Positions 6,310-55,879 of a DNA stretch of 64,000 nt are shown in pieces. The notes below the pieces were generated by a model. That model was not told where the DNA came from, searched no databases, and was given only the letters and a program-made list of their open reading frames with translations. Position 1 is the stretch's first letter. Each line of letters starts with the position of its first letter. A program made the translations under genes and the position numbers. Origin of the DNA: an uncultured virus (IMG/VR IMGVR_UViG_3300022552_000006) (lineage: Duplodnaviria; Heunggongvirae; Uroviricota; Caudoviricetes); IMG/VR virus record IMGVR_UViG_3300022552_000006. One strand, given 5' to 3'.

Positions 6310-6318
6310 TTACAAAAC

Positions 6319-10593: not shown

Positions 10594-12933
10594 CTATGAA
10601 ATTATTTTGCTCAATATTTCAGCAGCATGCGGATCTTTTATCCTTATTTCATTATAAAACTGCTTAAGGTCTTCCATAGTCAGTTCTGGGAAAACAGGCG
10701 TTTCTTTGTCTCTTGACCTCCATCTCACCTTTCGCTTGTCTGTGGGGTCGTAGCCCTTTTCCCGCAGAAGATAACCTTTAGCGTCAAGCATCTTAAGCAT
10801 TTTTGCAGTTTTGTCGGTGCCCCATCCCATTAGCGCTGCCATTTTAGCTATTGTAATGTCTTCCCCATTTCTTTCCACTTCTTGGCACTTTTTGTATAGC
10901 TTGCGCAATTTTTCGCTTCCTTCAAATATGAGTAAGAAGCTCTTTTCAAGCAATTTTTTTACCAAATTATAATCGTCAAGCGTGGCAACTATATAAACCT
11001 TGCCATTGATTTCAATTTTCGGTCTCTGGAACTGGTGGAGCCATGCAGACAGCTTGATAAACTCCTTAATTTTTGGGAAATCCCTCCTTAATCGCACATA
11101 CTCACTAGCCACTTTAATCTTTCTTGCGAGAATAAGCGAATAAGGATTTATAACGCCTTTATACCTACTTTTAAGCAAGCGTATGGCGTCTTTTATAAGT
11201 TCTTTCCTGTCTGCAACATGTATGCCCGGATGGATGTCTTCTTCTGCCTGAAATTCAAGAATAGCTTTTGTCTGCTCTGCTGAATCATTGCATTCAAGTC
11301 TCCATGTCCTTGACATAAATTCCTTGTCAAGCTGAAGCTGTGTGGATGCACAAGCAAAAACAGGCACGCCGTGTGCCTGCAGCTTTCTGTGAACATTTCT
11401 TCCTTGAGAATCTTTATCCACGATATCGGCACTAACGCCTTTCTGATCTCCTGACATTAAAGGTCTTAAAGTGATTATGGCTTCTTGCGCACCTTCAAAT
11501 TCTTGAACAACAATTATTTTACCGTCGATATTAGGCATCATTACTCCATCAATTTCTATTTTGGGAATATTTGGGTCTTCAGCAAAAATGTAGTTGAGGG
11601 CTTTCGGCGAGATGCTCGTGGATTTCAATAGAATATCCTCATCTGGTATGAAATCAAGAACCTGATTAAGAAGGTATGTTTTCCCGATGGATGTTTCCCC
11701 ACTTAGTTGAGGATGAATACGCGTATCAGTATAAGCAGACAAATAGCTCAAAAACAAAAGGAACCTGTTCTCGCGTTCATTTACAATTACTTTATCAAAT
11801 TCCTTTTGTATTTCGTCATATAAATTATTTGATTGGAGAAACTGCATGGCGTCGGCGTACATCTGTTCATTGAGCTTACAAGGGCAATCTGGGCCATGTA
11901 CCCCTAGCCGAGTAAGTATATTTATGGCTCTCATGTCAAAATAGATGTAGGGCTGTCTTTTATACCAATCTACCCAATCTTTGAGCTCCTTTACAGAAAA
12001 GTTTGTTAATCCACCTCTGTCAACACAAGCATTGTGATATGTTTTCAGAATAGTCATTGTATCTTCATCCGATAAGTCATCCAATGCACAACACAAAGCT
12101 ACAATTCCAGCACCATCGTGTCTCATTCCTTCGTCAACACCTTCATGGATTAATTTCTGGACACATGGTAATGTTGTATAAGCGCCTTCAAACTTCTGTA
12201 TGACTTTGGGTTTTTCTTCTTCAATAGAACTCATCACAAATTTGTTTATTATTGCCTTTATTTTGCCTTTTGGTACAATCCAGTATTCAATGGATTCGGG
12301 ATATTTAACTTTGTTTAAGTCATAAACACGCTCTTTTCGTTTTGGTATATCATCAATTAAAGTCTTATATGCCCACTTGACATTTCCAAGCTCATCTTTT
12401 CCAGCATTTTTCCTGCCGCCAAATTCCCTTACCAGATGCCCCTTGCTCTCATCTGAAAAATTCACACAAGAGTCGTCAAATGGTTTTCCCTTTCCCATAT
12501 AGTTTCTGTCAATGCCAGACTGAAGTACAATCTCATGCCATAAGTATGTCCTTATTTGCCTCTCCTGAAAGCCTTTCTTGTATGCATTTTTTAATAAGTC
12601 GCTTACTTCCTCATCCAGCGTAAGCTTGTAGAATATGTGAATGTGTATGCCTTTGCCCCCTGTATCGGCAAGAATAAACGGGATTCTTTGTTCCCTCAAA
12701 TAAGTTATTATTTTGGAGCCGAACTTTCTGGTATTGCTCCAGTCGGTAAAGTCCAAGTCAATGACTATTTCATTCTGCAAAACTGTTCTGTAATCTATCG
12801 GAAAGTCTGCCTGCGATAGGGGAACCCATATTCCTATGGGCCATGTTTCATCAGGAGCCCTATAGTGGTTGCTAACTAAAATTGGCTTACCCTTATTTAC
12901 TTTTTTAATTTTTTCTATCCATTTTTCTTGCAT
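10594..12933 (-). CDS. Primase-helicase: AEP primase domain, primase C-terminal domain, P-loop ATPase and C-terminal winged helix
   Basis: IVIDLD and TGGKGIHIH (AEP motifs I/II), LPCV...GMRH, Walker A GETSIGKT, Walker B IIVVQE, EFMSR arginine finger. Confidence 0.85.
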   Translation of the reverse strand: MQEKWIEKIKKVNKGKPILVSNHYRAPDETWPIGIWVPLSQADFPIDYRTVLQNEIVIDLDFTDWSNTRKFGSKIITYLREQRIPFILADTGGKGIHIHIFYKLTLDEEVSDLLKNAYKKGFQERQIRTYLWHEIVLQSGIDRNYMGKGKPFDDSCVNFSDESKGHLVREFGGRKNAGKDELGNVKWAYKTLIDDIPKRKERVYDLNKVKYPESIEYWIVPKGKIKAIINKFVMSSIEEEKPKVIQKFEGAYTTLPCVQKLIHEGVDEGMRHDGAGIVALCCALDDLSDEDTMTILKTYHNACVDRGGLTNFSVKELKDWVDWYKRQPYIYFDMRAINILTRLGVHGPDCPCKLNEQMYADAMQFLQSNNLYDEIQKEFDKVIVNERENRFLLFLSYLSAYTDTRIHPQLSGETSIGKTYLLNQVLDFIPDEDILLKSTSISPKALNYIFAEDPNIPKIEIDGVMMPNIDGKIIVVQEFEGAQEAIITLRPLMSGDQKGVSADIVDKDSQGRNVHRKLQAHGVPVFACASTQLQLDKEFMSRTWRLECNDSAEQTKAILEFQAEEDIHPGIHVADRKELIKDAIRLLKSRYKGVINPYSLILARKIKVASEYVRLRRDFPKIKEFIKLSAWLHQFQRPKIEINGKVYIVATLDDYNLVKKLLEKSFLLIFEGSEKLRKLYKKCQEVERNGEDITIAKMAALMGWGTDKTAKMLKMLDAKGYLLREKGYDPTDKRKVRWRSRDKETPVFPELTMEDLKQFYNEIRIKDPHAAEILSKIIS

Positions 12934-24312: not shown

Positions 24313-24349
24313 AGTGTTTTCTATGATAAAAATAAAAGAGAGGGATAAT

Positions 24350-32168: not shown

Positions 32169-32438
32169 TAATAATGGATATCTTAGAAATATGTTTATAT
32201 GCATTTTTGGCTTTAGAAATAATAGCTTTGGCTGGAATGCTTTTTGTGGCTATACCTAAAGTAATGTATAATCCAGCATGTGATAATGTTCCAAAACATA
32301 GTGAATTGGGATGTAAATGTGATTGCCAGAAAATTGGCTGGGAGTTCTGGGATTATAAACCAGGCGTTGTTTTTCGGCAGCCTGAATGCTGGTGTGCGAT
32401 AGAAATTTATGGAACAGAAACAAAAAGGATATGGTAAC

Positions 32439-33047
32439 ATGTGGGACAAATGGTTTGACGAATTAAAAGAAGATGAAGTAATGATAATGATAGCAATAGC
32501 AAGGAAAAAATACAACGAGAAATTAAAGTCGGAAGAAGTGGTGTTCAGGGAGATTGTTACGAAAGAAACATGGGAGAGAAAGTTTAACAAGCTGAAAACT
32601 CTTGTTCACCATTACCCAAGCAATGCAAGACCAGAGGATTATAGCATTTATATGACTTATAATCCAAGAAGCTTGAAAAAGGCGTTGTTTCTTCTGCAGG
32701 AAAGATTATTGAAATGGCAGTTTGAACTTTACAAAGGAAATATGGAAAATTATTTTTTTCACATCAGGAAACTGCCAAGCGAGTTCATATCGTGCCTTCA
32801 AAAGCCGGAGGCAAGGTCAAGAAGGTGGCACTTTCTGATAGATGTTGACGATATGGATAAGATAGGCGAAGTCAGAAGACAAATCAGCGAGCTTGGGCTG
32901 AAAGTCAAATACGAGGAACCAAGCAAAAACGGCTTTCACATTCTTGTCGAGCCGTTCAACATACTGAAGTGGAAGCCGATTGAAAATGTGGAAATAAAGA
33001 GAGATGGGATATTCCATATCTATCATGTGAGGCGAAACTGTGAATAA
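32439..33047 (+). CDS. Stand-alone AEP (primase-polymerase)-like protein
   Basis: FLIDVDD and SKNGFHI resemble AEP motifs I and II. Confidence 0.5.
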   Translation: MWDKWFDELKEDEVMIMIAIARKKYNEKLKSEEVVFREIVTKETWERKFNKLKTLVHHYPSNARPEDYSIYMTYNPRSLKKALFLLQERLLKWQFELYKGNMENYFFHIRKLPSEFISCLQKPEARSRRWHFLIDVDDMDKIGEVRRQISELGLKVKYEEPSKNGFHILVEPFNILKWKPIENVEIKRDGIFHIYHVRRNCE

Positions 33048-33449: not shown

Positions 33450-34088
33450 TTAAATACTTTTTGCCAATCGCTTCACGGTTGCCCAGTTATACCTTATGAT
33501 ATTACACTTTCTTTTTTCTCGCAATTTCTGTTTTACAAATTCAATTGTCTTTGGATCTCCCGGGTTACCAGAGCCAAAATCCCCATATTTCTTTTTCAGG
33601 TTTTCATATTCTTTTATCGACAGGCTTTTTCCAATTATGCTGGCTGCACCAACTGGAATATCTCTTGTTTCGTTTTCATGGTCTATAACCCACTTAGACC
33701 AGTCAAAATGGAAGCCAAGCTTCTCTGCCCTTTCAATAAATTTTTCCCTCGAATAGTCGAAGTTGTTGATTTGAACTTGGGCAATAGGGTATTTTGCCTC
33801 AAACTCCCTGACAATTGTGCAGAAGGCGTTACATTCCATATCGTTTAAATTGTATTGTTTGTTCGATTTGCTTATTTCAGGCGCCTTAATGTAAATGGCT
33901 TTGTAGTCCTCGACTATGTCCTGAATTACTGGCGTTATTTTCATTATTTTAGAATGAGTTAACAGTTTGCTGTCCCTGACTCCGATGCGTTGCAAGGCCT
34001 CAAGCATATTCTCCTTGACGACAACTCCTGTCACGATTAAACTGCCAATCACAGGGCATCGTGTTACATCATCTATTCCAATAATCAT
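33450..34088 (-). CDS. rnhB: Ribonuclease HII homologue with divergent active site
   Basis: IGIDD.TR.PVIG, GVRDSK.L, VGAASI..K and GDFGSG.P.DP.T motifs. Confidence 0.85.
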   Translation of the reverse strand: MIIGIDDVTRCPVIGSLIVTGVVVKENMLEALQRIGVRDSKLLTHSKIMKITPVIQDIVEDYKAIYIKAPEISKSNKQYNLNDMECNAFCTIVREFEAKYPIAQVQINNFDYSREKFIERAEKLGFHFDWSKWVIDHENETRDIPVGAASIIGKSLSIKEYENLKKKYGDFGSGNPGDPKTIEFVKQKLREKRKCNIIRYNWATVKRLAKSI

Positions 34089-35715
34089 TACCATAACCCC
34101 ATTATATTTGCTACGCCATCCCATAAAAAGACATATGCTCCACAGACGGGGCAGTATTCTGTGCCTTCTGGCAACTCAGTTCCACAGTTCGGACAATACA
34201 TTAATATCACCTTTTTTTCAATTATACCCCCTCCTCTATGTCGAAAAATTCTTTTAATAAAAATTGCCTACCTTCATTCCAGCCAACTTCATATCTGTTG
34301 TTTTCATCAATTTCTTTTCTTTTCTCAATTAACATTTTTAGCCATTTCTGTGCCTCTTTCCTAATTTTTTCAAGGTCTTTGGATGTTACATTTAAATCCT
34401 TTAAAGTTTTTAATTTAATTTAAACCACCTCTATATTACTTCCATCTCATAATCATTAATACTCTTCTGATGCCATCTTCCATCAAAAAATAAATGCATC
34501 CATACCTGAAATTCATCATTATTGAAGGTGATAGTGACAACAACAGGTAACTCCCAACTCATTCTATTTGGATCAGGAACAAAAACAATTTTTTCTAATG
34601 ATGGATTTCTTCCATATTCTCCTTTTCTTACTGTTTTCTCCTCTTTTATGAGAACATTCTTACAGCAAAGAACATTCTCAATTTCATCTTTGAGTTCACT
34701 TCTATAGTTTTCTAACTCAATTATTAACTCTTTCTTCATTTTAAACCACCTCCATGTCAGTTTTAACATACTGTGCGTTGCACTCTTTAACAAGAAAATC
34801 TGCAGTTTGCTTTGTTATGCCATAAGTATTTAGATTCTTTCCGTTACGATAAACAATTACTATGTAAGGGAATATTTGATTGCTGAAAAAGATTGCTTCT
34901 CTGACTACTAACTCAAGATTTAATGTTAGTTTTTCCCAACCTGTCGTCTGAGAGAAGATTTCTATCGTGTTTTCGTCAATTCTGTATCCTGTGCCGTTAA
35001 ATCCATATTTTTCTTTAAGGGCATTTACATAACATTCCAGATGTGCTAATGGATTGCATTCAAAGAGATTTCCACCACTAAACCAAGTTAAAACTCCTTT
35101 CGGTTCTTCTTTACCGCAAAAATAACATTTGTCAAATTTTGCTTCCCTAACTTGCTGTTCAATTGGTTTTTTGAATGTCAATTGCATAGCTCAACACCTT
35201 TTGCTCTCTTGTTCATCTTCTATTATTTTTGGATTTTTGTAAACATTATCCTTAATGTTACTACCCTTATTTATTTTTCTATATTTTAATCTACACCACT
35301 CTGCCCAAGCTACATAAATCCACCAATACCTCTTCATATGCTTATTTAGATACGCAATCACTCTCATTCATACCTCACCTCTCTCTTGTTAATTGCATAA
35401 CATCACCTTCTTTTAATTTGTTGCTTTAAAAACTTAAGGTCGGATATGTCATTCTTTGCCTTCTGATAGCCAAGTTCAAACGCCTCATAATACAGTTTGC
35501 CGTTCAATTTAAGCCATATAATGAATGACAAGAGGCCTGTCGTCAGCAGAATCATTTCTGGTATCATTTCGCCATAGCGATTAAAATCGAAGAGTATCTT
35601 TCCAGTTCCATGAAAGTATGCGTTTAATAGTATATAAGTTAATGTAGCTGTGGCTGCTAAAACTGTTACAATTCCGTAAAAACCAAATAGTTTAATGTAT
35701 TTTGGTTTCATGTCA

Positions 35716-40499: not shown

Positions 40500-41354
40500 T
40501 CACCTCACAAACCTTATGAATTTCGGAAACCTCATAACCCCGTTCTTGCTCAACTCCTGAAACTCGACTTCGACAAATCGGGGCTTATAATCATAAAAGT
40601 ATTTTTGGCTCTCGGCTCTCGGAACGGTAACCCTGCCAAGTTTGGTTATAAGGTTCAAAACAGGAACAGAAAGGCACAGGTTCTTCTGTGGGCGTGATTT
40701 ACTCTGCGTGTCGTATCCAAGAATCTCAAGCGTCTCGGTGAAGTGCTTTTTGCATTTAAGCCAATCGTTGCTTCTCTTCTGCACATATTTTGAATCCCTG
40801 TTTTTCGCCATAACTCCCTCGTAGCCGTTTTTCAAAAACTGCTCAAAGAGTTTTTGTGGCTCTTCCTCAAACTGCTCTACAACTCCTATGGTTCGGTTCG
40901 GAATTATGCTTTTTTCAAGCATTTTTCTCCTTTTCCATAGGGGGTATTGCGTCAAATCCCTGCCGTTAAGTGAGAGAACGTCAAAGGCAACAAATTGGGC
41001 AGGATACATCTCGGACATCAGTTTAATTCTCATTCTGTCGGCTACGTGAGTCCTGCTCATAAGAATATCAAACCCCTCGTCAACAACCATCTCGCCGTCA
41101 AGAATTATGCTCCTGACATTCGGCTCTAAAATCCTTTCAAACAGTTCAAGGTTAAATTCGGGAAACTGCTCACGGCTCACAACCTGAAACACATTTAAGC
41201 GTGAGTTTCGCCTCTTCAAAACAAATTCACCCGTATCCAAATTTACCAAAAACAAATTTCGGCTTCCGTCATACTTCGGCTCAAAGACATAGTTCTCAAG
41301 ATTCTTCAAGTCCTCGTATGAAATCCTGTTCGCCAACATAGGTTTTTCTATCAT
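40500..41354 (-). CDS. Minimal ATP-dependent DNA ligase (LigD-LIG/LigC-like)
   Basis: KPMLA, EPKYDG.R, LDGE, AFDVL, EGVMAK, WLKCK and RFP.F motifs. Confidence 0.92.
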   Translation of the reverse strand: MIEKPMLANRISYEDLKNLENYVFEPKYDGSRNLFLVNLDTGEFVLKRRNSRLNVFQVVSREQFPEFNLELFERILEPNVRSIILDGEMVVDEGFDILMSRTHVADRMRIKLMSEMYPAQFVAFDVLSLNGRDLTQYPLWKRRKMLEKSIIPNRTIGVVEQFEEEPQKLFEQFLKNGYEGVMAKNRDSKYVQKRSNDWLKCKKHFTETLEILGYDTQSKSRPQKNLCLSVPVLNLITKLGRVTVPRAESQKYFYDYKPRFVEVEFQELSKNGVMRFPKFIRFVR

Positions 41355-41500
41355 TCAAAACACCTTTTTGCAGGGCAGGGAAAGAGGCAGAATTTCGTGT
41401 GTTGGGGTGTGATACCTGTGCCTCTTTCTCCTGCCTTTCTGCTATTTTGCAGGGCTGGGTAGGGAGAGAAATCGTTTAGGTGGGTGATGTAAATGAAATC

Positions 41501-42277
41501 TCAACAACCCTGCCCAACCTTTCTGCTTTTATGGAGTTTGGCTATTTGCTCCAAACCCTTGCTGAATGAGTCCTCAAGTTCCTGTTTCGGCTTCACGGTT
41601 ACTTTTTTCTTGCCCAAAATGGCTTCAAAGAGTTCCTGTTTGTATGTGTCCTTAATTTCGCCCAAAACCACGTTCTGCGTGTCCTTCTGTATGCTTTCAA
41701 GCAAAATTTCTGCGTTCTCAACATCTTTTTCGGATACTGCAATCGGATTAAGTGGCGTTGGCTTTCTCACCTGCTCTGCGTATATCAACTGAAACAATAT
41801 CAGAAAGTCGCCGAACGGCTCTATGAGTCCCAGGCGTTTTCTTGTCCTCATTATATAGTTAATCAATAGCGACTTTTTGCTCTCCTTCAAGGCCTCTCGC
41901 AATATGAAATATCCACGTTCAAATTTCTCCTTCGGTATCAAATAGTAGGTTTTGTCTATGAGATACTTTAACTTGTATGTGTCCTTCTGCTCAAACACCT
42001 TCAAAACCCTGCACGACTTGTCCTGTTTGTCCCTGATGGCTTCAATAATCCCTGCGTCAAAAACAATTTTCTTGTCCTTGCTGATTTTAAGTGCCTTCTT
42101 CATCTCGGAATACTGAATTTCACGGTTACACGTGGGGCAATATCTCCTGGTTTTAATGTCGTGTCCTTCGGGGCATACGTTTGAAAATGATATGTCGTTG
42201 TAATCTGCGAATGTGCTTAAAGACATCGGAAGGTTCAACATTCCAAACTCCAAATTTAATGTGCCTATTGACTTCAT
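41501..42277 (-). CDS. ku: Ku protein (NHEJ end-binding)
   Basis: G.L.FGMLNLP, ISF..V, I...RYC..C.REI, DKTYYL.P, Y.IL.EAL, EQVR and DTY...L motifs of prokaryotic Ku. Confidence 0.88.
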   Translation of the reverse strand: MKSIGTLNLEFGMLNLPMSLSTFADYNDISFSNVCPEGHDIKTRRYCPTCNREIQYSEMKKALKISKDKKIVFDAGIIEAIRDKQDKSCRVLKVFEQKDTYKLKYLIDKTYYLIPKEKFERGYFILREALKESKKSLLINYIMRTRKRLGLIEPFGDFLILFQLIYAEQVRKPTPLNPIAVSEKDVENAEILLESIQKDTQNVVLGEIKDTYKQELFEAILGKKKVTVKPKQELEDSFSKGLEQIAKLHKSRKVGQGC

Positions 42278-42829: not shown

Positions 42830-43540
42830 TTAATCCCCCTTTATGCGTGGGGCTATAATAACAGCAAATTTCAGCCCCGAATTTCTCAAAACAAACTTAA
42901 TTGGGTAATCATTCCCGATATATATTTCGGCGTCAAAATCCTTTAATCTCTTGAGTTTCAACAGATATTCAATTGATGCTAATGTCCTTATTTTCTCCTG
43001 TGAATATGTCTCGCCGATTAAAACTTCGGAGTCCCCGCACTTCAAATATAGTTTTCTGTCCCTGTTCTCTATGGCAACGGCTTCGGTCACGTTGCTAAAC
43101 GTGTTTACATATTTCAGAAATTCCTTAAAGTCAATTTTTGCCTTTAAAGGCCATGTTAAATTTTTGATGTCGGGTAACTGTTGCTCTTCAATTTCTATGT
43201 TTTTGGTTATGTATTTCTGAATCCCGTCATAAAGCGTTGTGCCGCCTTCTGAAATTGTTATATTCACGGTATCCTTGAAATTGTTTAAAAACGGCAGAAA
43301 TTCTTTTAAGTTCAACCCTATTGTTTTATTGTTGTTTTCAATATCGAAATTCAAAAATGCCTCTCTTAATGCCTTAAAATTAAAATAACAAATCTGGGCG
43401 TAGTCAATACTTTTAATTTCAATAAAATTTTTGTTTAATCTTAAATTCACTTCATCTTTTAATGCTGAAATTGTTTTTAGCGTGTTTTTAAAATCTTTCA
43501 ATTCTTTTTTAGTCAGCGTTACATATTCAAATCTATTCAT
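42830..43540 (-). CDS. pcn: PCNA / DNA polymerase sliding clamp
   Basis: L.DEVN, ID.AQIC, IGLNL, SIEYL and NDYPIK...IAPRI motifs; 236 aa. Confidence 0.88.
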   Translation of the reverse strand: MNRFEYVTLTKKELKDFKNTLKTISALKDEVNLRLNKNFIEIKSIDYAQICYFNFKALREAFLNFDIENNNKTIGLNLKEFLPFLNNFKDTVNITISEGGTTLYDGIQKYITKNIEIEEQQLPDIKNLTWPLKAKIDFKEFLKYVNTFSNVTEAVAIENRDRKLYLKCGDSEVLIGETYSQEKIRTLASIEYLLKLKRLKDFDAEIYIGNDYPIKFVLRNSGLKFAVIIAPRIKGD

Positions 43541-44786
43541 ATACCCACCTTTTATTTTTTTTTTTTTTTTTTTTTTTTTATTTCGGTTCGGCTCGGTTAT
43601 CCACGTCTCATATAACCGTGTTCTCTCTCTTTTTTTATGCGGTTCGGCATATCAACAACCTTATGGCTCTTTATGGTGGCCACCATATCGGTTCTTTAAG
43701 GTTCGGTTCGTGCCGTTGGTTAAAATGCCAAAATCGGCAAAAACATTATAGTAATTGGTAACCGTTGCTTAATGAGTAATTTTTATAATGCTCAAATTCT
43801 GAACCCAATAAGTCGCTTAACAAATATTCAAAACTATATAAAACTTGAAATATTCTATCAGAACCATATAACCCACCACAATAAATGTTTCTGAAAATTA
43901 AAGATGCGTTTTCATTTTCAATATAAATATTAATCCTGTTAATGACTTTATACCTGTCAAAACCCTGTATAGTTACTCTAACTGTGCTTTTAACGTTGTT
44001 GGTTTTGACAAATTCGGCAAAACTTTTTAATGCCTTTAACTGTTCGGCGTCAAAATCTTTTTTTTCTATGCCGAATGTTCGATTATTCGGCTTTTTATTT
44101 AGATATATTTCTATCATTTACACCACCCTTTAAAAGTTTTCTTAATCTTTTAATATATATATTGTTTAATGGATTTGAATCTTGGTTTCTTATTGTGTTT
44201 TGTATTTGTTGTTTCATATATGTTTTAATGTATTAATTGATATATATATTTATGTATAGTGGAATATATATACTGAAGCATACAAAACTTTATATATGCT
44301 GATGTGTATTTATTGTTTTGGGTGATGTAATGAAGATAAACAACGAATACATAGAAAAACTATATGAAGACGGGCAAATAACCTATATGGAAAAAGAAAT
44401 TTTACTTAACGTAAACAACAATAAAAAATTTTGGTTGGGGTTGGTGTAAATGGCTAAATTTCAATTTGTGAGAAGTAGATATACGGGAGAGATTTTTATT
44501 GATTTACAAAACACATATATAAGAGTTGCTGACGGGCGGGAGTTTTTGCCTGTTCATTTTGAAAATGGGGAGTTGGAAAGATACAATTATATAGTAAAAA
44601 AGGTGGTGTGAATGGATAAAAATAAAGTTTTGGTAAATGTAGAAGGCCGTAAAAAACCTATATGGCTTGAAGTCGTGGACATAAAGAGAGTTGGGATATT
44701 GGAGAAACTGAAGACAATAATAAGGGGGGCCTGGAACACATAAAAAAAGCGTGTGTGGGGGCGTGTTGTAATTTGTGTGTGGGGGT

Positions 44787-44847
44787 ATACTGCAAGATGC
44801 AAGATGCACACAGTAATTAAGGATACTGCAAGATGCAAGATGCACAC
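44787..44847. repeat. 25-bp direct repeat
   Basis: atactgcaagatgcaagatgcacac at 44787-44811 and 44823-44847. Confidence 0.85.
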
Positions 44848-45699
44848 TGCACACAATAAGGTAATGCGTCAGAATTTTGTTAATCGGCTGTAAAGGTTTT
44901 GTGTGGCGTGTCCTATTATGTTAATTGTGTGGGGGTGTGTCATAAAAAAGGGTGTCCATAAATGAAGTTAACAGAAATAAATAACACGTTGTATTTAGAG
45001 ACAAAAGCACACAAACTTAATTTTAGTGTTTTTGTCGGCTCGTATATGTCTTATGCGGTCATCTCTGATTTTGTGTCTCAATATAAAAACTCTCTTGGTG
45101 AGTTTTGGGCTTTTGTCGGCTCACTTCTGTTTATTTATTCTTTTATAACTTTATGGTGGTGTTGCAGATGGATAAAAAAGAATTAATGAAAATGGCACGT
45201 GGCCTGTTCGGTGTGTCGGGCTTCTCTGAAGATTTTTTTAAGAAGTTTGACATAAAGAGAGAACAGACCAAAACACAGGCAGAAGCAAGGCAAAGGGTGG
45301 CAGAATATAAGAAGCGTGGCTACGTGGCCACATATAAGCGTTTTGACTTCGTGGATTTGGCACGTGAAAGCATCTATGAAGTCGTGGCCATTCGGGAAAA
45401 GGTGTAGTGGAAAATATATATTCGAATATACAGGTTTTGATGGCATAATGGAATATATATATTCCATAACATAAAATCCCGCATGGCCACCAACAAGGCC
45501 ACCAGGCCACAGGCACACAGGAATATAACGGTGTTATGGCGTGGCACAATATAACGGTGTTATAGGCGGGGGTGTCTTTAAATGGCGTGTGGGCTTAACC
45601 TGTGGGGTGGAAAATATAGGTTTCAAAATATGGTTTTCAATATATGGTTTTAAAAATATGGTTTAGAGAATATAATATATTGCGGGATATATGTTTTTT

Positions 45700-45766
45700 A
45701 GTATACAAAAGTATTTATATACATGATGCCAATAATAAAGCGGGTGATGTATAATGAAAATAACAA
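45700..45766 (+). promoter_or_regulatory. Archaeal BRE/TATA promoter plus RBS plus start, copy 1 of a 67-bp repeat
   Basis: CAAAAGTATTTATATA...GGGTGATG..ATGAAAATAACAA. Confidence 0.8.
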
Positions 45767-51021: not shown

Positions 51022-51252
51022 ATGTCTAAGACAGATGAATGGAGACTGAAACAAATGGAATGGCGTGGCTATACTGTAAAGGCTTTGGAAGATATGAACA
51101 ATGAATTGAAAGAAATTAAACATGAGTTAAAAGACACGAACAAAAAAATTGACAGATTAAACAATGCGCTTGGGCGAGTACAGATAAAAGTTGCTGGAAT
51201 AGGAGCTACTGTGGCCATTCTTGTTTCAATCATACTGCATATTATGTGGTGA
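51022..51252 (+). CDS. Coiled-coil protein with C-terminal TM helix (XhlA/holin-like)
   Basis: Heptad repeat followed by VAGIGATVAILVSIIL. Confidence 0.55.
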   Translation: MSKTDEWRLKQMEWRGYTVKALEDMNNELKEIKHELKDTNKKIDRLNNALGRVQIKVAGIGATVAILVSIILHIMW

Positions 51253-53132
51253 GAAAAATGAAATTATTGATGCTGGGAACAGGTCCAACAAATCCTGTTG
51301 TGGGGAAGGGAAAGGATAATCGTAGGAATAGCTCGATGCTTCTGACCACAAGGAACGGGACAACTGTGCTTTTTGACTGCACGCCACAGTTTTATGAGCA
51401 AATGCAGACATTTGCGCCGGACACCAATAAAATCGATTATATTGTTTTCAGTCATGGTCATTCTGATGCGATTGGAGGCATACCTCAGTTAAAATACTGG
51501 TTAAAGGAAAAAAAACAAGAGAAAGCTCCGATAGCATATATGCAAAAAGAAACAGAATTTCGCATAAAAGAGCGGTTTAAGGACTTGTCTCATATGGATA
51601 TAAGAAATTTCAAGCCGTATGAAATATTGAATCTCGAACACCTTAAGATTGTACCATTTAAGGTTATTCACGCCGAAGCATTCCCTACTGGAAACAAGTT
51701 TCCTACAGTGGGCTTCAGAATCGATAACAAGATAGTTTATGCAGAAGATATGGAATCTGTTCCAGATAAATCAATACCCTATTTTGAGAAGTCTAAAATT
51801 ATTATAATAGATGCTGCAATGTGGGATGACAAAAAAATAAGGGGGCATATGAATGTAAAGCAAGCTCTTGAATTCTGCAAGAAATTCAAAACACGTGAAA
51901 TTGTTTTGACGCAAGCAGGGCACACATATCCATCATATAATAAAGCGCAGAAAGAGATTGAAAAGATTTGGTCTGATATTGGCGGCGATAAGCGAACAAG
52001 CGTTACCCTTGCTTATGATGGAATGAGTCTTATAATAGCAGACAATTTTGAAAAAGTAAATGACTATCTGATTCAGATAAAGGAAGGGATTTACCTTGTT
52101 AAGCCGCACGCCGAGATGATATGGAAAGGAAACAAGAAGTATATAGTGAAAGCAAAAAAATATATGAAGATGATTGACAAGCTTCTCTACTTTTGCGACG
52201 ATGAATATGCTTATGGTATATTGCGTCTCAAAAAGCCTTTTCTCATAAATCTTGATGAATTCAATAATTTCAAGCCGCAACACCTTATAAGCAATGAAGA
52301 AAGGAAAAAATGGTGGGGCGGGAAGCGCTTTCTGTTTATGTATCCATTTGACATAATCGAGAAGTTCAAAAAGCCGAAAAAAATAAAGGTTCTGCCCGGG
52401 ACCCAAACATTCATTAAGGATGTCCAGTTTATGAGTGAGCTTTCTGAAATAGAAATGATAGAAGATGTTAATCAGTATGATCCATCAAAAGTCAATAGCA
52501 AAGCGTTGACCAACGATTGGCGAATAGTCTTAGCTTGGTATGCGACAAAAAAGCGTGGAGGCAACCTGAAGCATTCTTTCGATACAATCATAGGGCTTGC
52601 CAAAAAGATTTACGATGAGATTGTGAAAAGAGTTGAACGGGGCGACATGAAGCATATATTCAAGCCAGAAAAAATGACTCCATACGCGAAAGAGCTGTAC
52701 AATAGAGTTAAAAATATGAAAGTTAGTGAAAATAAGGAATACACCGCCTCAATTGACGAATTAACACCTCTTGTCAGTCAGTTTAAGGAATTTAAAATCA
52801 TAAAAGATTTTATATCGTTAGTTGGTTCGAATGTAAAACGAGAGGAGGGGCACATACCCAATGACATAGATTTGCATATTCGTATGCGCACCCCTCCCGA
52901 TTATATTAGAAGAGCAATCGAAGTTAGGTTGTTAAAAATGCTACCAAATGATATAGCAAATAAAATACATTTTATCTGGGGAGATCCTGAAGGTTCGCAT
53001 GACTCGTTTGTTCCGTTATATGACCTTGCCTTAGTTAAGTCTGACAGAAAAGTTGTTGAAATGGGAGAATTGAAAATCGGGCAAGCTATTGTTATCAATG
53101 GTAAAAGAGGTATAATAAAGGAGGTTAAATGA
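51246..53132 (+). CDS. Multidomain protein: MBL-fold hydrolase (PhnP/RNase Z-like), ASCH-like domain and pol-beta-type nucleotidyltransferase-like domain
   Basis: MLGTG, FDC.P, SHGHSDA and AYDGM (MBL); GIYLVKPHAEMIWKG.K (ASCH-like); SLVGS...NDIDLHIR (NTase GS/DxD). Confidence 0.75.
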   Translation: MVRKMKLLMLGTGPTNPVVGKGKDNRRNSSMLLTTRNGTTVLFDCTPQFYEQMQTFAPDTNKIDYIVFSHGHSDAIGGIPQLKYWLKEKKQEKAPIAYMQKETEFRIKERFKDLSHMDIRNFKPYEILNLEHLKIVPFKVIHAEAFPTGNKFPTVGFRIDNKIVYAEDMESVPDKSIPYFEKSKIIIIDAAMWDDKKIRGHMNVKQALEFCKKFKTREIVLTQAGHTYPSYNKAQKEIEKIWSDIGGDKRTSVTLAYDGMSLIIADNFEKVNDYLIQIKEGIYLVKPHAEMIWKGNKKYIVKAKKYMKMIDKLLYFCDDEYAYGILRLKKPFLINLDEFNNFKPQHLISNEERKKWWGGKRFLFMYPFDIIEKFKKPKKIKVLPGTQTFIKDVQFMSELSEIEMIEDVNQYDPSKVNSKALTNDWRIVLAWYATKKRGGNLKHSFDTIIGLAKKIYDEIVKRVERGDMKHIFKPEKMTPYAKELYNRVKNMKVSENKEYTASIDELTPLVSQFKEFKIIKDFISLVGSNVKREEGHIPNDIDLHIRMRTPPDYIRRAIEVRLLKMLPNDIANKIHFIWGDPEGSHDSFVPLYDLALVKSDRKVVEMGELKIGQAIVINGKRGIIKEVK

Positions 53133-55879
53133 TGTTTCTCAATGAATATGAAAAGAAAAAAAGAGAAATATTAGCGCAACTTGATAGTTTAGAAAGTCAG
53201 CTTCAGAAAAAAGAGCTGAAGTTGGCAACGCAAGAAACTCTTTGGATAACAGCTATCGAAGATAGGCTTAAGGCAATAGAAAATAAAATTAAAAGATTAA
53301 ATGAAATTGAGAAGTATGCTATTGAACCTACTTATGTCATCGAGTTCGAAGATGGCACCACTAAAGAGCTGACGAAAAAAGAAATCGAAGTGCTTGCCGA
53401 TACGACATCGCATGATGTTGGTAGCATCCAGCCAATTATTTGGGCTGTGGGAAAAAAAGTGAAAGCCAAAGGCAAGGTTGGCGTCATAAAAAAGAAAATA
53501 AAACAAAAAGGATATATAATACAGTTTGAAGATGGAGAGACAGAAGAAGTTGACGAAAAGGAGTTGGAAGAGTCTAATATAATCCCTCTAAAGCCTTTTT
53601 TACCTTCAGAAAGCAAAGTGTATAATGGTATCGAGAGCATAATAAAAGAGCTAAATCCTAACGAGGCTAATGTTTATTTTGTTGAGGAAAGACCGAAAGG
53701 CATTCGCTTGCTTTTGCATAAGGCTGGAAAAAACATTGAACTGTTTTTATCAAACAAAGAAAATGTGACAGATAAATATCCGGATATTGTGAAGCAGGCG
53801 CCAAACCTTACTGCAGAAGACATAATCCTTGATGGTGTTCTGGTCGGCAACAAATACAAGGTGTTTGACATATTGTATTATAAGAATCAGTCTTTAGATG
53901 ACATCAGGCTTTATGAGCGCAAAAAAGTTTTGAACTTACTCGAATTTACAGAGAACATAGTTAAGTCTCCATTTGTTGTTGTCAATTCTTCGGATCAGAT
54001 GATTAAGGCAGTTAAGCTATTCAGGGCTTTGCCTACCAGTGATGGTGTTCTTATTAGGGGCTATAATTCAACATATAAGTTAGGTTTTAATCAGTTTTGG
54101 TCTGTTTTTAGTCTCGAAGCCCAGCCAAAATTGTTTAAACCATATTTGCCTATGAAGCCACATGGTTCCGCTTATTATGATTTGAAAGAATGCATAAATG
54201 ATTTACAGAACGGAAAAAAATATTCATTTGAGTTCAAGTATAATGGATTTCACGCAGTAGCTCATAAGAAAGGGGAAGAAGTGAAAATATTTTCCGAGCA
54301 GAAAAAAGACATTTCTTCGGCATTTCCAACATTAATGGAAAATATCAAAAAGCTTGCGCCTAATCATGATTTTATAGTTGATGGGGAAATTGTTCCATAC
54401 TCTCCTGAAGGAAAAGCTCTTGGTAGAGACCCTTTGATGAAATTTATCGGCGCGGTGAAATCTGGGAAAAAGCTTGATGATTCATTAATTAAAATGCATG
54501 TTTTTGATATTACATATTTTGACAAGCCAATTATAGAAAAACCGTTACATGAAAGGCAGCTTGTTCTGGATAAGCTCAAGTTCAATGACAGAGTTGAAAG
54601 GGTTTTGTATAAAATCGGTACAAAAGAGAATGCAGAAAAATTGATTAACTGGGCTACACGGCAAGATGGGAGCGAAGGTTGCGTGATAAAGGATTTGGAT
54701 TCGCCTTATGTATTTGGCGAAAAATCAAAAGCATGGATAAAGTTCAGACATCTGGTTGACATTCATGCTGTCGTGCTAAAGAAAGTCGAAAAGGAAAGGA
54801 ATTTATTCAATTACCTTGTTGGAATATATGTTTCTCAGGAGGATGCGAAAAAGCTTCATCCAGATTACATTCAAGATTTTAACGGAAAAAAAGTCTTGGT
54901 TCTTGGTCATACATTTAACACAAGTGAAGAAGTTTCTCCTGGAACAATTATAGATGTTGCCTTAGAAGATGTGTGGCGCCATACTTATCCTGAAATAAAT
55001 AAAGTCAGATATTCGATACACAAGCCAAGATTTAGGCAAACAAGACCAGACTTGAAGAAAACATCATCTATTCAAGACTTGGAAGATATTGTCACCAGCA
55101 TTGGTGAAGAAGTAATTGTGGAAAAGGAAGAGCTGAAAGAAAAATCTTGGGAAGATGTTCTCAAAAAGGGCGAAGGCGAAGGTGGAGATTTTGAAACAAG
55201 ATACGAAGCGGCAGTTAAGTTTTGGGATGCAAACTGGTATAAAAGCTTTCCAAAATCAGGCAAGGGAGTATTTATTTACCATCATCATTATAGAGGGCTG
55301 ACTGAAGACGAATCTAAGATGAGTGAAGAGGAGCTTCTTGATACGGATAACTCTGTTCATGGCGATCTCAGGTGCCAGAAAGACGACAAATCACTATGGG
55401 GGTTTACAATTTTTACTGGTAGCACAAAAGATTTGAAAAAAGCAGGTGGCTGTAGGTTGTGTGAGCTTGAAGGAAACGAAAAGATGCAAGGCACATTCAA
55501 GTTGTTAGAGCCGCTTGCGTGGGCAAAAGTTGGATTAAAAAAGCCTTATGTTTCGGAGCCAGAAGGCGTAGGCGCAACCAAAAATTACTATGCGAAATTT
55601 TTCGCAGTTGATCACGGCACCTATGATATGGGAGTTTGGAGAAAGCATAGTTTTGAAATATTTTTACATGGGAAAAAACTAAAGGGGCGTTATATAATTC
55701 AGTTCGCTCCTGTTGGTGGGCGTCGCGTCTGGCTTATTTCTCATCCGGAAGACCAGACTCCTTATGCAGATTCGCACAAGCTTGAAGATGTTATCAAAGA
55801 ATTGAAAGCGAAAAAGCAAGAATGGCTCGTCTGGGCAAAGCCCGGTGTTAAGCCTAAACTAATTCATATTGGTGATTAA
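53129..55879 (+). CDS. Multidomain ATP-dependent ligase: SH3-like repeats, degenerate ligase domain, intact ligase plus OB domain, LigD 3'-phosphoesterase-like domain
   Basis: Domain 1 EERPKG.R/LDG/VFDIL/DG lacks the adenylated Lys; domain 2 EFKYNG/VDGE/VFDI/EGCVIK/WIK; C-terminal HHH.R...HGDLR...FLHGKKLKGRY. Confidence 0.85.
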   Translation: MMFLNEYEKKKREILAQLDSLESQLQKKELKLATQETLWITAIEDRLKAIENKIKRLNEIEKYAIEPTYVIEFEDGTTKELTKKEIEVLADTTSHDVGSIQPIIWAVGKKVKAKGKVGVIKKKIKQKGYIIQFEDGETEEVDEKELEESNIIPLKPFLPSESKVYNGIESIIKELNPNEANVYFVEERPKGIRLLLHKAGKNIELFLSNKENVTDKYPDIVKQAPNLTAEDIILDGVLVGNKYKVFDILYYKNQSLDDIRLYERKKVLNLLEFTENIVKSPFVVVNSSDQMIKAVKLFRALPTSDGVLIRGYNSTYKLGFNQFWSVFSLEAQPKLFKPYLPMKPHGSAYYDLKECINDLQNGKKYSFEFKYNGFHAVAHKKGEEVKIFSEQKKDISSAFPTLMENIKKLAPNHDFIVDGEIVPYSPEGKALGRDPLMKFIGAVKSGKKLDDSLIKMHVFDITYFDKPIIEKPLHERQLVLDKLKFNDRVERVLYKIGTKENAEKLINWATRQDGSEGCVIKDLDSPYVFGEKSKAWIKFRHLVDIHAVVLKKVEKERNLFNYLVGIYVSQEDAKKLHPDYIQDFNGKKVLVLGHTFNTSEEVSPGTIIDVALEDVWRHTYPEINKVRYSIHKPRFRQTRPDLKKTSSIQDLEDIVTSIGEEVIVEKEELKEKSWEDVLKKGEGEGGDFETRYEAAVKFWDANWYKSFPKSGKGVFIYHHHYRGLTEDESKMSEEELLDTDNSVHGDLRCQKDDKSLWGFTIFTGSTKDLKKAGGCRLCELEGNEKMQGTFKLLEPLAWAKVGLKKPYVSEPEGVGATKNYYAKFFAVDHGTYDMGVWRKHSFEIFLHGKKLKGRYIIQFAPVGGRRVWLISHPEDQTPYADSHKLEDVIKELKAKKQEWLVWAKPGVKPKLIHIGD

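What the first reader, a model, noticed from the sequence alone, without database searches (positions are those of the whole stretch)
40500..42277. Adjacent Ku and ATP-dependent ligase; all four prokaryotic NHEJ functions may be virus-encoded
Seen: Ku lies directly upstream of a minimal ligase in the early region; an AEP-like ORF is at 32439-33047 and a PE-like domain at the end of 53129-55879. Known: prokaryotic NHEJ uses Ku with LIG, POL (AEP) and PE activities; it is rare in archaea (split form in Methanocella); mycobacteriophages Omega and Corndog carry Ku but rely on host LigD. Inference: a self-sufficient viral NHEJ pathway for genome circularisation or repair of CRISPR/restriction breaks.
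Basis: partly seen in the sequence, partly recalled or inferred. Interest (0 to 1): 0.8.

Follow-up and report, generated by a model that had tools for sequence, protein, structure and literature searches.

The report
Archaeal virus Ku-ligase end-joining cassette
An uncultured tailed virus, probably of archaea, carries a DNA-end-binding Ku gene directly followed by its own small DNA ligase, so it may join or protect broken DNA ends without host enzymes, unlike the known Ku-carrying phages.

Summary
ORF 41501-42277(-) is a full-length prokaryotic Ku. ORF 40500-41354(-), 146 nt downstream, is a 284-aa ATP-dependent DNA ligase with motifs I-VI intact. The pair is conserved, adjacent and in the same order, in a complete 79.8-kb relative (Ku 62%, ligase 55% identity). 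That relative has no detectable PCNA, so the ligase travels with Ku.

The two further claims are real as folds but are not linked to Ku.
- The C-terminus of the 916-aa ORF is a clear LigD 3'-phosphoesterase fold (Z 13.8). It belongs to a widespread head-module ligase-PE protein family, and 20 of 21 long viral records carrying that family lack Ku.
- The 212-aa ORF is probably a small AEP-like nucleotidyltransferase (conserved DxD, GxH, D; only AEP primases align over its whole length, Z up to 7.7). It belongs to a large, scattered phage family and does not match LigD POL models.
- A 779-aa protein with AEP-type motifs and a Walker A motif is probably the replicative primase-helicase.

Best reading: a virus-encoded Ku-ligase pair for end protection and joining (confidence 0.55). 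A coordinated four-part NHEJ pathway is not shown. The scan has noted head-module ligase-PE kits before on other DNA, without Ku. GenBank phage Ku hits were Omega-like mycobacteriophages plus one fragment; my paper searches found no archaeal-virus Ku.

The parts
41501..42277 (-). Ku (258 aa). Core beta-barrel plus a C-terminal arm. C35/H39/C47/C50 are invariant in the viral clade. The tail is Lys-rich and is preceded by a conserved E-D-x-F-S-[KR] motif.
40500..41354 (-). Minimal ATP-dependent DNA ligase (284 aa): nucleotidyltransferase domain plus a compact OB domain, with no N-terminal DNA-binding domain. Intact motif residues: K27-x-D29-G30-x-R32, D86-G87-E88, F124-D125, E179-G180...K184, W198-L-K200-x-K202, R275.
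41355..41500 (-). 146-nt Ku-ligase spacer. By my reading of the sequence it has no T-run of 5 or more, and an AGGTG lies about 8 nt before the ligase ATG. It is not conserved in the relative.
42830..43540 (-). PCNA-type sliding clamp, 236 aa, upstream of Ku on the same strand.
   Evidence: NF002222 E 2.2e-23, below cut-off; its 3 of 3 GenBank virus hits are archaeal viruses. No match in relative G002.
53129..55879 (+). 916-aa head-module protein with five parts: an N-terminal region; a degenerate ligase NTase copy; a ligase NTase domain; an OB-like region; and a C-terminal LigD-type PE barrel.
53588..54118 (+). Degenerate first ligase-NTase copy (about residues 154-330). R188 stands where the catalytic Lys should be; motif III reads DGV and motif IV reads DG..R.
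   Evidence: PF01068 E 1.8e-14
54134..54778 (+). Second ligase NTase domain (residues 336-550). Motif I reads K370-Y-N-G-F-H. Family members read K-x-[DN]-G-[FY]-[RH].
55262..55753 (+). LigD 3'-phosphoesterase-fold barrel (residues 712-875). H720, H744, D746 and R748 are invariant in 28 sequences.
51246..53132 (+). MBL-fold hydrolase (628 aa), overlapping the 916-aa ORF by 4 nt. It is fused to the ligase-PE homologue in relative G002.
32409..33047 (+). Small AEP-like (palm-type) nucleotidyltransferase, 212 aa; the likely start is at 32439. D145, D147 and G175 are invariant and H177 and D199 nearly invariant.
10594..12933 (-). 779-aa candidate primase-helicase. N-terminal AEP-type motifs (VIDLDF, GGKGIHIH) and a Walker A motif (GETSIGKT) were read by eye.
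   Evidence: LigD_Prim-Pol E 0.007, below cut-off; 75% identity in G002
33450..34124 (-). RNase HII (224 aa), also present near the Ku-ligase pair in G002.

Best explanation
The window is part of a tailed dsDNA virus, probably of archaea, whose close relative is about 80 kb. It carries a two-gene cassette: a homodimer-type prokaryotic Ku followed by a dedicated minimal ATP-dependent DNA ligase.

Proposed mechanism. Ku rings load on the free ends of viral DNA, either the incoming linear genome or breaks made by host nucleases. There they shield the ends and hold them together, and the cognate ligase seals compatible ends. This would circularise or repair the genome without a host LigD, which most archaea lack.

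What is shown: both genes are present and intact, and they are conserved as a pair.

What is inferred: end binding, cooperation between the two proteins, and the substrate.

The virion-module ligase-PE protein and the small AEP-like enzyme may clean 3' ends or fill gaps. However, they belong to families that work without Ku and are not shown to be part of this cassette.
For: Identity of the two genes.
- Ku is identified by four independent sequence tests and aligns full-length to solved NHEJ Ku structures.
- The ligase keeps every catalytic motif in an 11-sequence alignment.
- The ligase scores best against the NHEJ-ligase model TIGR02779 (124.8 bits), ahead of the Lig1-type model dnl1 (99.0 bits). 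It lacks the N-terminal DNA-binding domain of replicative archaeal ligases: its match to PDB ligases starts at their adenylation domain.

The pair is conserved.
- In the complete relative G002 (79,771 bp), Ku (62% identity) is again followed by the ligase (55% identity, 156 of 284 residues).
- Four further Ku relatives and four ligase relatives sit on contigs of identical lengths (8428, 80423, 5660 and 15178 bp), so they are very probably the same contigs.
- G002 keeps Ku and the ligase but gives no match to this PCNA or to the archaeal PCNA family model. The ligase therefore tracks Ku, not the clamp.

Context.
- No terminator-like T-run lies between the two genes.
- Viral Ku aligns, at the position of the conserved bacterial C-terminal motif, with its own conserved E-D-x-F-S motif followed by a Lys-rich tail.
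- An archaeal host is suggested by the PCNA (its 3 of 3 GenBank virus hits are archaeal viruses), by Alba and by the capsid protein's single hit, an Altiarchaeum virus.
Against: - No experiment or expression data exist.
- The physical ends of the genome are unknown. G002 is classed 'linear, no end repeats'. From gene positions, its ends appear to lie elsewhere on the gene map than any break in this window. That would fit a circular or permuted genome, which needs no end joining to circularise.
- In this window the cassette sits in a replication-type block with PCNA, a clamp-loader-like ATPase and RNase HII. The complete relative encodes no family-B polymerase. The ligase could therefore simply seal nicks during replication.
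- Ku alone could act as a Mu Gam-like nuclease shield.
- Both proteins score below NCBIfam's equivalog cut-offs.
- The host, and whether it has its own Ku or ligases, is unknown.
Confidence: 0.55

Rival explanations
1. Two separate jobs. Ku acts only as a Gam-like shield that protects viral DNA ends (for example rolling-circle or concatemer ends) from host exonucleases. The adjacent ligase is the virus's replication or nick-sealing ligase (Okazaki fragments, packaging nicks). No end joining takes place.
For: - The cassette lies in a block with PCNA, a clamp-loader-like ATPase, RNase HII and an SSB-like gene.
- The virus seems to borrow the host polymerase: no PF00136 match in the complete relative.
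- Minimal ligases of similar size in Bacillus SPbeta-type phages are its nearest GenBank phage relatives, at 25-27% identity over the full length.
- From recall: Mu Gam is a Ku relative that only protects ends.
Against: - The ligase stays next to Ku in G002, where PCNA is not detectable.
- I saw no PIP-box-like motif at either terminus of the ligase when reading the sequence.
- The ligase's best family model is the NHEJ ligase domain.
- The viral Ku is a full-length Ku with a C-terminal arm, not a truncated Gam-type protein.
Confidence: 0.27
2. A full virus-encoded four-component AP-NHEJ pathway. Ku recruits the ligase, the small AEP fills gaps, and the PE domain of the 916-aa protein resects 3' ends, all acting together on the same breaks.
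For: - All four folds are present and all are conserved in G002.
- The PE fold is unambiguous, with the metal and phosphate residues H, H, D and R invariant.
- The AEP-like protein keeps an invariant DxD, GxH, D set.
- Methanocella shows that archaeal NHEJ can run on separate Ku, Lig, Pol and PE proteins (PMC4797286, abstract seen in the listing; PDB 5dmp matched).
Against: - The genes are dispersed. The AEP is 8.5 kb away on the other strand, and the PE is 11 kb away in the head module.
- The ligase-PE head protein family is found without Ku in 20 of 21 long viral records. The AEP-like family is found in only 3 of those 21.
- The AEP-like protein gave no LigD POL hit, and LigD POL is not among its top 50 structural matches.
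- The PE is fused to its own ligase, so it forms a self-contained heal-and-seal unit.
Confidence: 0.15
3. The cassette is a recently acquired passenger module with no role in the viral cycle.
For: The Ku clade is small: 9 close relatives, then a drop to 29% identity or less. No cellular genome in the species collection carries it.
Against: Both genes are intact and keep their order across relatives that have diverged to 55-62% protein identity. Catalytic residues are invariant.
Confidence: 0.03

Closest known systems
Ku of mycobacteriophages Omega and Corndog (Pitcher et al. 2006, seen only as cited in PMC12848934; Omega-like phage records)
   Same: A virus-encoded prokaryotic-type Ku. In those phages it is proposed to serve genome circularisation by end joining.
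   Different: - Those phages use the host's LigD. In phage WXIN no ligase is annotated within 4 kb of Ku.
- Identity to this Ku is only 21-25%.
- Here a dedicated ligase follows Ku, and the virus looks archaeal.
- Corndog itself was not detected by my tblastn search.
Archaeal split AP-NHEJ of Methanocella paludicola (separate Ku, Lig, Pol and PE; PMC4797286 abstract seen in the listing; PE structure 5dmp)
   Same: Stand-alone Ku plus a stand-alone ligase rather than a fused LigD. The PE fold here matches 5dmp (Z 10.7, 124 residues aligned).
   Different: - That system is cellular and, as far as I recall, gene-clustered.
- Here only Ku and the ligase are adjacent.
- Here the PE is fused to a second ligase in the head module.
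- The AEP-like protein here is a 212-aa RepB'/PrimPol-like form, not a LigD-type POL.
Bacterial Ku-LigD two-component NHEJ (Mycobacterium, Bacillus, Pseudomonas)
   Same: Ku is homologous over its full length (PDB 8v53, E 5e-16). The ligase resembles the LigD ligase domain (1vs0, E 3.1e-12; TIGR02779 is its best model).
   Different: The ligase has no fused POL or PE domain. Both proteins score below the equivalog cut-offs. Whether the Ku C-terminus contacts this ligase is unknown.
Minimal phage ligases of SPbeta-type Bacillus phages (YoqV/LigB; NCBIfam PRK07636)
   Same: Same size and architecture. The match covers residues 4-282 of the ligase and 4-273 of the 275-position profile. Identity is 25-27% across GenBank Bacillus phages.
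   Different: I did not cross-check accessions.
Head-module ligase-PE 'repair kit' proteins of uncultured tailed viruses (earlier notes of this scan) and the polyvalent-protein concept of Iyer et al. 2017 (PMC5512222)
   Same: - The 916-aa ORF belongs to this family. Its PE region is 42-77% identical to 75 further proteins; a 76th hit, at 99%, is the same protein.
- 66 of the 76 carry PF01068 and 37 of the 76 carry PF14550. That PF14550 is an XkdF-type capsid protease is recalled, not from a call.
- The gene lies between the portal and capsid genes.
   Different: - Here the family co-occurs with Ku and a second ligase.
- Where relatives have a motif that I read, from recall, as Pol-beta-type nucleotidyltransferase, this protein has a dead ligase-NTase copy.
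- A term search in the 2017 paper found no mention of DNA ligase, LigD or PE modules.
Phage Mu Gam (recalled; no call)
   Same: A Ku-related end-binding protein encoded by a virus and used to protect linear DNA ends.
   Different: As I recall, Gam is a shorter, distant Ku relative with no ligase partner. The protein here is a bona fide Ku-family member (PF02735 above cut-off).

Membership tests
Prokaryotic Ku (PF02735 / TIGR02772) | Ku beta-barrel core domain above Pfam's gathering score | tested here: met
   88.8 bits against a cut-off of 25, residues 11-184
Prokaryotic Ku (PF02735 / TIGR02772) | Full-length similarity to a solved NHEJ Ku | tested here: met
   PDB 8v53, 9i91 and 9vnq, E about 5e-16; query residues 1-248
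Prokaryotic Ku (PF02735 / TIGR02772) | NCBIfam equivalog score | tested here: not met
   119.2 bits, below the cut-off of 150. This is a divergent clade; the next relatives are at 29% identity or less.
Prokaryotic Ku (PF02735 / TIGR02772) | Homodimeric ring that binds DNA ends and recruits or stimulates a ligase | not testable with these tools
   Needs biochemistry.
ATP-dependent DNA ligase (PF01068) | Nucleotidyltransferase motifs I, III, IIIa, IV and V, plus OB motif VI | tested here: met
   K27, D29, G30, R32, D86, G87, E88, F124, D125, E179, G180, K184, W198, K200, K202 and R275 are invariant in 11 sequences. PF01068 scores 116.6 bits.
NHEJ ligase domain (TIGR02779, LigD LIG) | Equivalog-domain score | tested here: not met
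   It is the best-scoring model, but at 124.8 bits against a cut-off of 227.75.
LigD 3'-phosphoesterase (PF13298; PDB 3n9b, 3p43, 3p4h, 5dmp) | Sequence match to the Pfam model | tested here: not met
   13.6 bits, below 31.1, E 0.077. A PDB profile search found no PE entry. Four of 76 homologues carry a precomputed PF13298 hit.
LigD 3'-phosphoesterase (PF13298; PDB 3n9b, 3p43, 3p4h, 5dmp) | Eight-stranded PE beta-barrel fold | tested here: met
   - Model pLDDT 95.7.
- The top 7 Foldseek hits are all PE structures, E 8e-7 to 8e-4.
- VIA-align gives Z 13.8 (3p43, 123 of 124 residues, rmsd 2.4 A), 13.4, 11.8, 11.5, 10.7 and 9.1. The next unrelated chain scores Z 3.5.
LigD 3'-phosphoesterase (PF13298; PDB 3n9b, 3p43, 3p4h, 5dmp) | Active-site His, His and Asp (Mn2+ ligands), Arg and His (phosphate binding) and Tyr (PMC3082917, passages read) | tested here: inconclusive
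   H720...H744-x-D746-x-R748 are invariant in 28 sequences, with a roughly 20-residue insert between the two His residues. I could not map the second phosphate-binding His or the Tyr without coordinates.
Archaeo-eukaryotic primase (AEP) superfamily: the 212-aa ORF | Catalytic motifs I (DxD), II (GxH) and III (D) | tested here: met
   D145, D147 and G175 are invariant; H177 and D199 are at least 90% conserved in 83 sequences.
Archaeo-eukaryotic primase (AEP) superfamily: the 212-aa ORF | AEP catalytic fold | tested here: inconclusive
   - Model pLDDT 93.7.
- Every alignment of 120 residues or more in the wide search is an AEP: RepB' Z 7.7 over 134 residues, S-2L PrimPol Z 7.2 over 138, human PRIM1 Z 6.8, Pyrococcus primase Z 6.4, NrS-1 Z 5.8.
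- However, Z is below 8, and Foldseek found nothing at E 0.001 or better.
- The nearest named Atlas cluster carries PF24387 'AEP-like' (score 0.93).
LigD POL / LigD_Prim-Pol (PF21686): the 212-aa ORF | Match to the LigD primase-polymerase model | tested here: not met
   No hit at E 0.1 or better. No Pfam family matches more than 1 of the 83 family members.
AP-NHEJ system as a gene set (Ku + LIG + POL + PE) | Components linked by fusion, operon or consistent co-occurrence | tested here: not met
   Only Ku and the ligase are adjacent and co-conserved. Ku was found in 1 of 21 viral records holding the ligase-PE protein, and the AEP-like family in 3 of 21.

The most novel reading that the evidence does not exclude
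This archaeal virus runs a complete, self-supplied, two-stage end-repair programme. A ligase-PE enzyme carried in the virion cleans and seals damaged ends as the DNA enters. An expressed Ku-ligase pair, helped by a small AEP gap-filler and RNase HII, then circularises the genome or rejoins CRISPR or restriction breaks. That would make it the first virus-encoded NHEJ pathway independent of the host, in hosts that mostly lack NHEJ.
Probability: 0.18. Interest if true: 0.8.

Novelty: new variant of a known kind. Interest (0 to 1): 0.6.

Why it matters
- Ku-carrying viruses known from GenBank are essentially one group of mycobacteriophages that depend on host LigD. A conserved viral Ku plus own-ligase cassette, in a virus that looks archaeal, would show that viruses can carry end joining into hosts that lack it.
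- That bears on how linear viral genomes survive entry and on escape from CRISPR or restriction cuts through error-prone rejoining.
- It also bears on the patchy, transfer-driven distribution of Ku in archaea.
- The pair is small (258 + 284 aa) and could be a compact end-joining tool if active.
- Finding the head-module ligase-PE protein in the same genome gives a natural system for asking whether that widespread 'repair kit' ever works with Ku.

Tried and rejected
- Complex prediction of Ku (2 copies) with the ligase: no verdict, score 0.01 against a mark of 0.32. This is neither support nor evidence against binding.
- Single-protein Ku search of viral contigs: nothing. The clade alignment then found one locus.
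- Genome-contig scans with the Ku-clade alignment and with a TerL alignment: no relatives. No host or provirus lead came from them.
- The window's own assembly is not held. G001 is a 29-kb fragment of the same virus without the Ku region.
- PDB profile search with the PE-family alignment: only ligase entries.
- Foldseek with the 212-aa model: nothing at E 0.001 or better. The second-look VIA search added only RepB' among long matches. LigD POL was not among the listed rows.
- hhalign of the 212-aa family against the 779-aa protein: no relation, probability 0.2%.
- phmmer of the 779-aa protein against PDB: nothing meaningful.
- Sequencing runs: 8 holders, all kept as contigs, none on record as RNA. 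Laying 4 of them showed strain variants but no molecule ends, so genome termini and expression remain open.
- Ku-ligase spacer aligned to the relative's spacer: not conserved, no shared element.
- Sigma-70 promoter and terminator scan: counts at the shuffle level.
- Literature: searches found no paper that reports Ku in an archaeal virus or a viral Ku-ligase pair. Subscription journals are not covered, and no supplements were read.
- Considered and dropped: that 32409-33047 is the replicative primase. The 779-aa AEP-motif protein with a Walker A motif fits that role better.
Full report
**What the window is.** The 64-kb window is part of a tailed dsDNA virus.
- It encodes a large terminase (47517-48911), a portal (49273-50580) and a capsid protein (57223-58233), with large Kelch/DUF2341 and F5/F8-type C (galactose-binding) domain proteins, possibly tail fibres, at both ends.
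- Its informational genes have an archaeal flavour: a PCNA-type clamp (42830-43540; NCBIfam archaeal sliding-clamp models, E 2e-23, below cut-off), Alba (23151-23474) and RNase HII (33450-34124).
- In GenBank phage and virus records the PCNA finds only three records, all archaeal viruses (two Halorubrum tailed viruses and one Methanomicrobiales-associated virus). The capsid protein finds only an Altiarchaeum virus.
- The window's own assembly is not held.
- A complete relative, G002 (79,771 bp, CheckV 100%), was reached through the Ku clade.
- Near-identical sequence occurs in contigs of runs labelled marine, hydrothermal-vent and marine-sediment metagenomes, from several studies.
- No cellular genome in the species collection carries the Ku clade or the terminase, so the host is unknown.

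**The observation.**
- ORF 41501-42277 (258 aa) is Ku. It matches PF02735 (E 5.5e-25, 88.8 bits, cut-off 25), PHROG 4873 'Ku-like DNA end binding' and TIGR02772 (E 2e-34, 119.2 bits, below the equivalog cut-off of 150). It aligns over residues 1-248 with a solved NHEJ Ku (8v53, E 5e-16).
- ORF 40500-41354 (284 aa) starts 146 nt downstream and is an ATP-dependent DNA ligase (PF01068, E 1.6e-33).
- In an alignment of 11 relatives, motif I (K27-x-D29-G30-x-R32), motif III (D86-G87-E88), motif IIIa (F124-D125), motif IV (E179-G180...K184), motif V (W198-L-K200-x-K202) and motif VI (R275) are all invariant. The enzyme looks catalytically intact.
- It consists of the adenylation domain and a compact OB domain only. 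Matches to archaeal and eukaryotic Lig1-type structures begin at their adenylation domains.
- Its best NCBIfam model is the NHEJ ligase domain TIGR02779 (124.8 bits), ahead of the Lig1-type model (99.0 bits). All scores are below the curated cut-offs.

**The pair is a conserved unit.**
- Ku has nine close relatives in public protein data (61-97% identity). Identity then drops to 29% or less for ordinary bacterial Ku.
- In G002, Ku (62% identity) is followed by a 283-aa ligase that is 55% identical (156 of 284 residues).
- The ligase's five close relatives (54-98% identity) sit on contigs whose lengths (8428, 80423, 5660 and 15178 bp) equal those of four Ku relatives. They are therefore very probably the same contigs. 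I could not fetch those contigs to see the adjacency directly.
- G002 gives no match to this window's PCNA or to the archaeal PCNA family model, while the same tool found Ku, both ligases and other genes in it. The ligase therefore travels with Ku and not with the clamp.
- The spacer between the genes has no T-run and is not conserved in sequence.
- The viral Ku clade has invariant C35, H39, C47 and C50, a possible metal site. Some bacterial Ku proteins have similar residues.
- Where bacterial Ku has its conserved C-terminal motif, the viral clade has its own conserved E-D-x-F-S-[KR] motif followed by a Lys-rich tail.

**The PE claim.**
- Residues about 154-330 are a degenerate copy of a ligase nucleotidyltransferase domain (PF01068, E 1.8e-14 on that piece alone). 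R188 stands where the catalytic lysine should be, and motifs III and IV are altered.
- Residues 336-550 are a second ligase domain that is probably active. Its motif I reads K370-Y-N-G-F-H. Relatives show K-x-[DN]-G-[FY]-[RH], so the Asn and His variants are family features.
- An OB-like region follows.
- The last roughly 200 residues, folded with a 28-sequence alignment (pLDDT 95.7), are a LigD 3'-phosphoesterase barrel.
  - The seven best Foldseek matches are all PE structures, with E values from 8e-7 to 8e-4.
  - VIA-align gives Z 13.8 to 3p43 (123 of 124 residues, rmsd 2.4 A) and Z 13.4 to 3p4h.
  - It gives Z 11.8 and 11.5 to the Pseudomonas LigD PE and Z 10.7 to the Methanocella NHEJ PE (5dmp).
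  - The next unrelated chain scores Z 3.5.
- H720, H744, D746 and R748 are invariant. They correspond in order to the two histidines, the aspartate and the arginine of the PE active site described in PMC3082917 (passages read). The second phosphate-binding histidine and the tyrosine could not be mapped.
- By sequence alone the domain is marginal (PF13298 E 0.077; no PE entry in a PDB profile search).

**The PE is not a dedicated partner of Ku.**
- Its family is large. 76 proteins match the PE region: one is the same protein at 99% identity and the other 75 are 42-77% identical. 101 of 145 pattern-matching stretches in viral contigs encode a relative.
- The members are long multi-domain proteins. 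66 of 76 carry PF01068 and 37 of 76 carry PF14550. Others carry methyltransferase, UDG or MBL domains. That PF14550 is an XkdF-type capsid protease is my recollection, not a call result.
- In this window the gene follows the portal and an MBL-fold hydrolase (51246-53132), which overlaps it by 4 nt, and it precedes the capsid genes.
- In G002 the MBL, ligase and PE parts are one 1606-aa ORF with a LAGLIDADG-type insertion.
- Earlier notes of this scan describe the same kind of head-module ligase-PE 'repair kit' in other viruses, each time without Ku.
- I tested that directly. Of 21 long viral records that hold the family (36-102 kb, chosen by length from the 80 loci, plus G002), Ku (PF02735) is present in 1, which is G002. 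Among the 8 records that are at least 90% complete, it is present in 1.
- A term search in the 2017 paper on phage polyvalent proteins finds no DNA-ligase, LigD or PE module.

**The AEP claim.**
- ORF 32409-33047 belongs to a family of about 200-aa proteins with 389 representative clusters at E 0.001 or better. The family has no Pfam model: no family matched more than 1 of 83 members.
- D145, D147 and G175 are invariant, and H177 and D199 are nearly so. This is the order and spacing expected for AEP motifs I-III.
- The model is confident (pLDDT 93.7). Foldseek finds nothing significant.
- In the all-against-representatives structural search, every alignment covering 120 residues or more is an AEP:
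  - RepB' primase: Z 7.7 over 134 residues, and Z 7.3.
  - Cyanophage S-2L PrimPol: Z 7.2 over 138 residues.
  - Human, yeast and Tetrahymena primase subunits: Z 6.0-6.8.
  - Pyrococcus primase: Z 6.4. NrS-1 PrimPol: Z 5.8. Sulfolobus PriS: Z 5.7.
- The many other rows match only a 60-residue ferredoxin-like sub-domain. These Z values are in the range the tool calls 'middling', so I rate the AEP fold as probable, not proven.
- A language-model look-up puts a cluster carrying PF24387 'AEP-like' nearest among named clusters (score 0.93).
- The protein does not hit the LigD POL model. LigD POL structures are not among the listed matches.
- The family is present in only 3 of the 21 ligase-PE-bearing viral records: two strong matches and one weak.
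- The virus also has a 779-aa protein (10594-12933) with AEP-type motifs (VIDLDF, GGKGIHIH) and a Walker A motif, read by eye. Its only family support is a sub-threshold LigD_Prim-Pol hit (E 0.007). It is 75% identical in G002 and is the likelier replicative primase-helicase.

**How it most likely works.**
- Shown: an intact Ku and an intact minimal ligase, adjacent, co-conserved and independent of PCNA.
- Inferred: Ku binds the ends of viral DNA and its neighbour seals them.
- The closest precedent is mycobacteriophages Omega and Corndog, which exploit host LigD to circularise their genomes at cos sites (Pitcher 2006, seen only as cited in PMC12848934).
- In GenBank phage records this Ku finds 52 Mycobacterium phages and one 5.5-kb fragment, all at about 25% identity or less. 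In phage WXIN no ligase is annotated within 4 kb of Ku.
- The ligase's GenBank relatives are in Bacillus SPbeta-type, Rhizobium and other phages. By organism name, apart from unnamed 'Bacteriophage sp.' records, the two sets do not overlap.
- A virus of archaea, most of which lack Ku and LigD, would need to bring its own ligase. That is what is seen here.
- I put 0.55 on an end-joining or end-protection-and-sealing cassette.
- The main rival (0.27) is that Ku is only a Gam-like shield and the ligase a replication ligase. Supporting it, the block holds replication genes, and the complete relative has no family-B polymerase.
- The full four-component pathway gets 0.15, because the PE and AEP families are demonstrably not tied to Ku.

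**What remains open.**
- Genome ends: only contigs, not raw reads, were available. From gene positions, G002's ends appear to fall elsewhere on the gene map than any break in this window, which hints at a circular or permuted map.
- Expression timing, the host, and any Ku-ligase contact. The complex prediction gave no verdict.

**Novelty.**
- Known: Ku-plus-stand-alone-ligase as a cellular arrangement, viral Ku, and (within this scan's own notes) head-module ligase-PE proteins.
- Not found in the five literature searches I ran or among 50,697 GenBank phage records: a virus that pairs Ku with its own ligase, or any Ku in an archaeal virus.
- I class it as a new variant of a known kind.

Noticed in passing
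51246-55879 (and L013:1536-6356 in G002): The MBL-fold hydrolase and the ligase-PE protein are two ORFs here, overlapping by 4 nt. In the relative they form one 1606-aa ORF that also carries a LAGLIDADG-type (intein or homing-endonuclease-like) insertion at residues 1361-1419.
   Followed up: partly
53588-54118: The 916-aa protein holds a dead tandem copy of its own ligase nucleotidyltransferase domain (R188 in place of the catalytic Lys). Relatives have a different module in that position, with a G-S...D-x-D motif that I read, from recall, as Pol-beta-type nucleotidyltransferase.
   Followed up: partly
23656-31027: A contiguous sugar-modification cluster inside the virus: UDP-GlcNAc 2-epimerase, a WxcM/FdtA-like isomerase, two NAD-dependent epimerase/dehydratase or RmlD-like enzymes, a methyltransferase, and three GT2-type and one GT4-type glycosyltransferases. 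G002 has a related but different set that includes a radical SAM enzyme.
   Followed up: no
23151-23474: A virus-encoded Alba chromatin protein (PF01918, E 4e-16).
   Followed up: no
43550-43583: A 34-nt homopolymer (T on the + strand) immediately upstream of the PCNA start. Public contigs of the source-like run break exactly here.
   Followed up: no
44297-44601: In minority contigs of two runs (X1 at depth 4.5 against 33; also X2), this roughly 300-bp stretch, which includes the 53-aa ORF 44450-44611, is replaced by 33-35 other letters. This is a presence/absence variant in the strand-switch region.
   Followed up: no
44200-47500: A 3.3-kb gene-poor divergent region between the leftward Ku/PCNA block and the rightward terminase. 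It contains 14-nt tandem repeats at 45611-45674 (3.9 copies) and many strain differences and indels. It is a candidate origin or packaging-site region.
   Followed up: no
12905-15075: A Cas4-like PD-(D/E)XK nuclease (12905-13603) overlaps the start of the 779-aa candidate primase-helicase gene. An Mre11-like calcineurin-type 'DNA repair exonuclease' lies at 14170-15075 (phrog_7339, E 4e-42). These form an end-resection set that could feed recombination rather than end joining.
   Followed up: no
8089-8721 and 15568-16608: Two DNA methyltransferases: phrog_757, and a C5-cytosine methylase (PF00145, E 3e-87). This is likely anti-restriction self-methylation.
   Followed up: no
5770-6777: A tRNA-Ser(AGA) gene (5770-5862, minus strand) lies next to a YopX-domain protein (5890-6309) and a RyR-domain protein (6319-6777).
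   Followed up: no
41501-42277 (Ku residues 35-50): C35, H39, C47 and C50 are invariant in the 10-member viral Ku clade and partly present in some bacterial Ku proteins. This is a possible small metal-binding knuckle in the Ku core.
   Followed up: no
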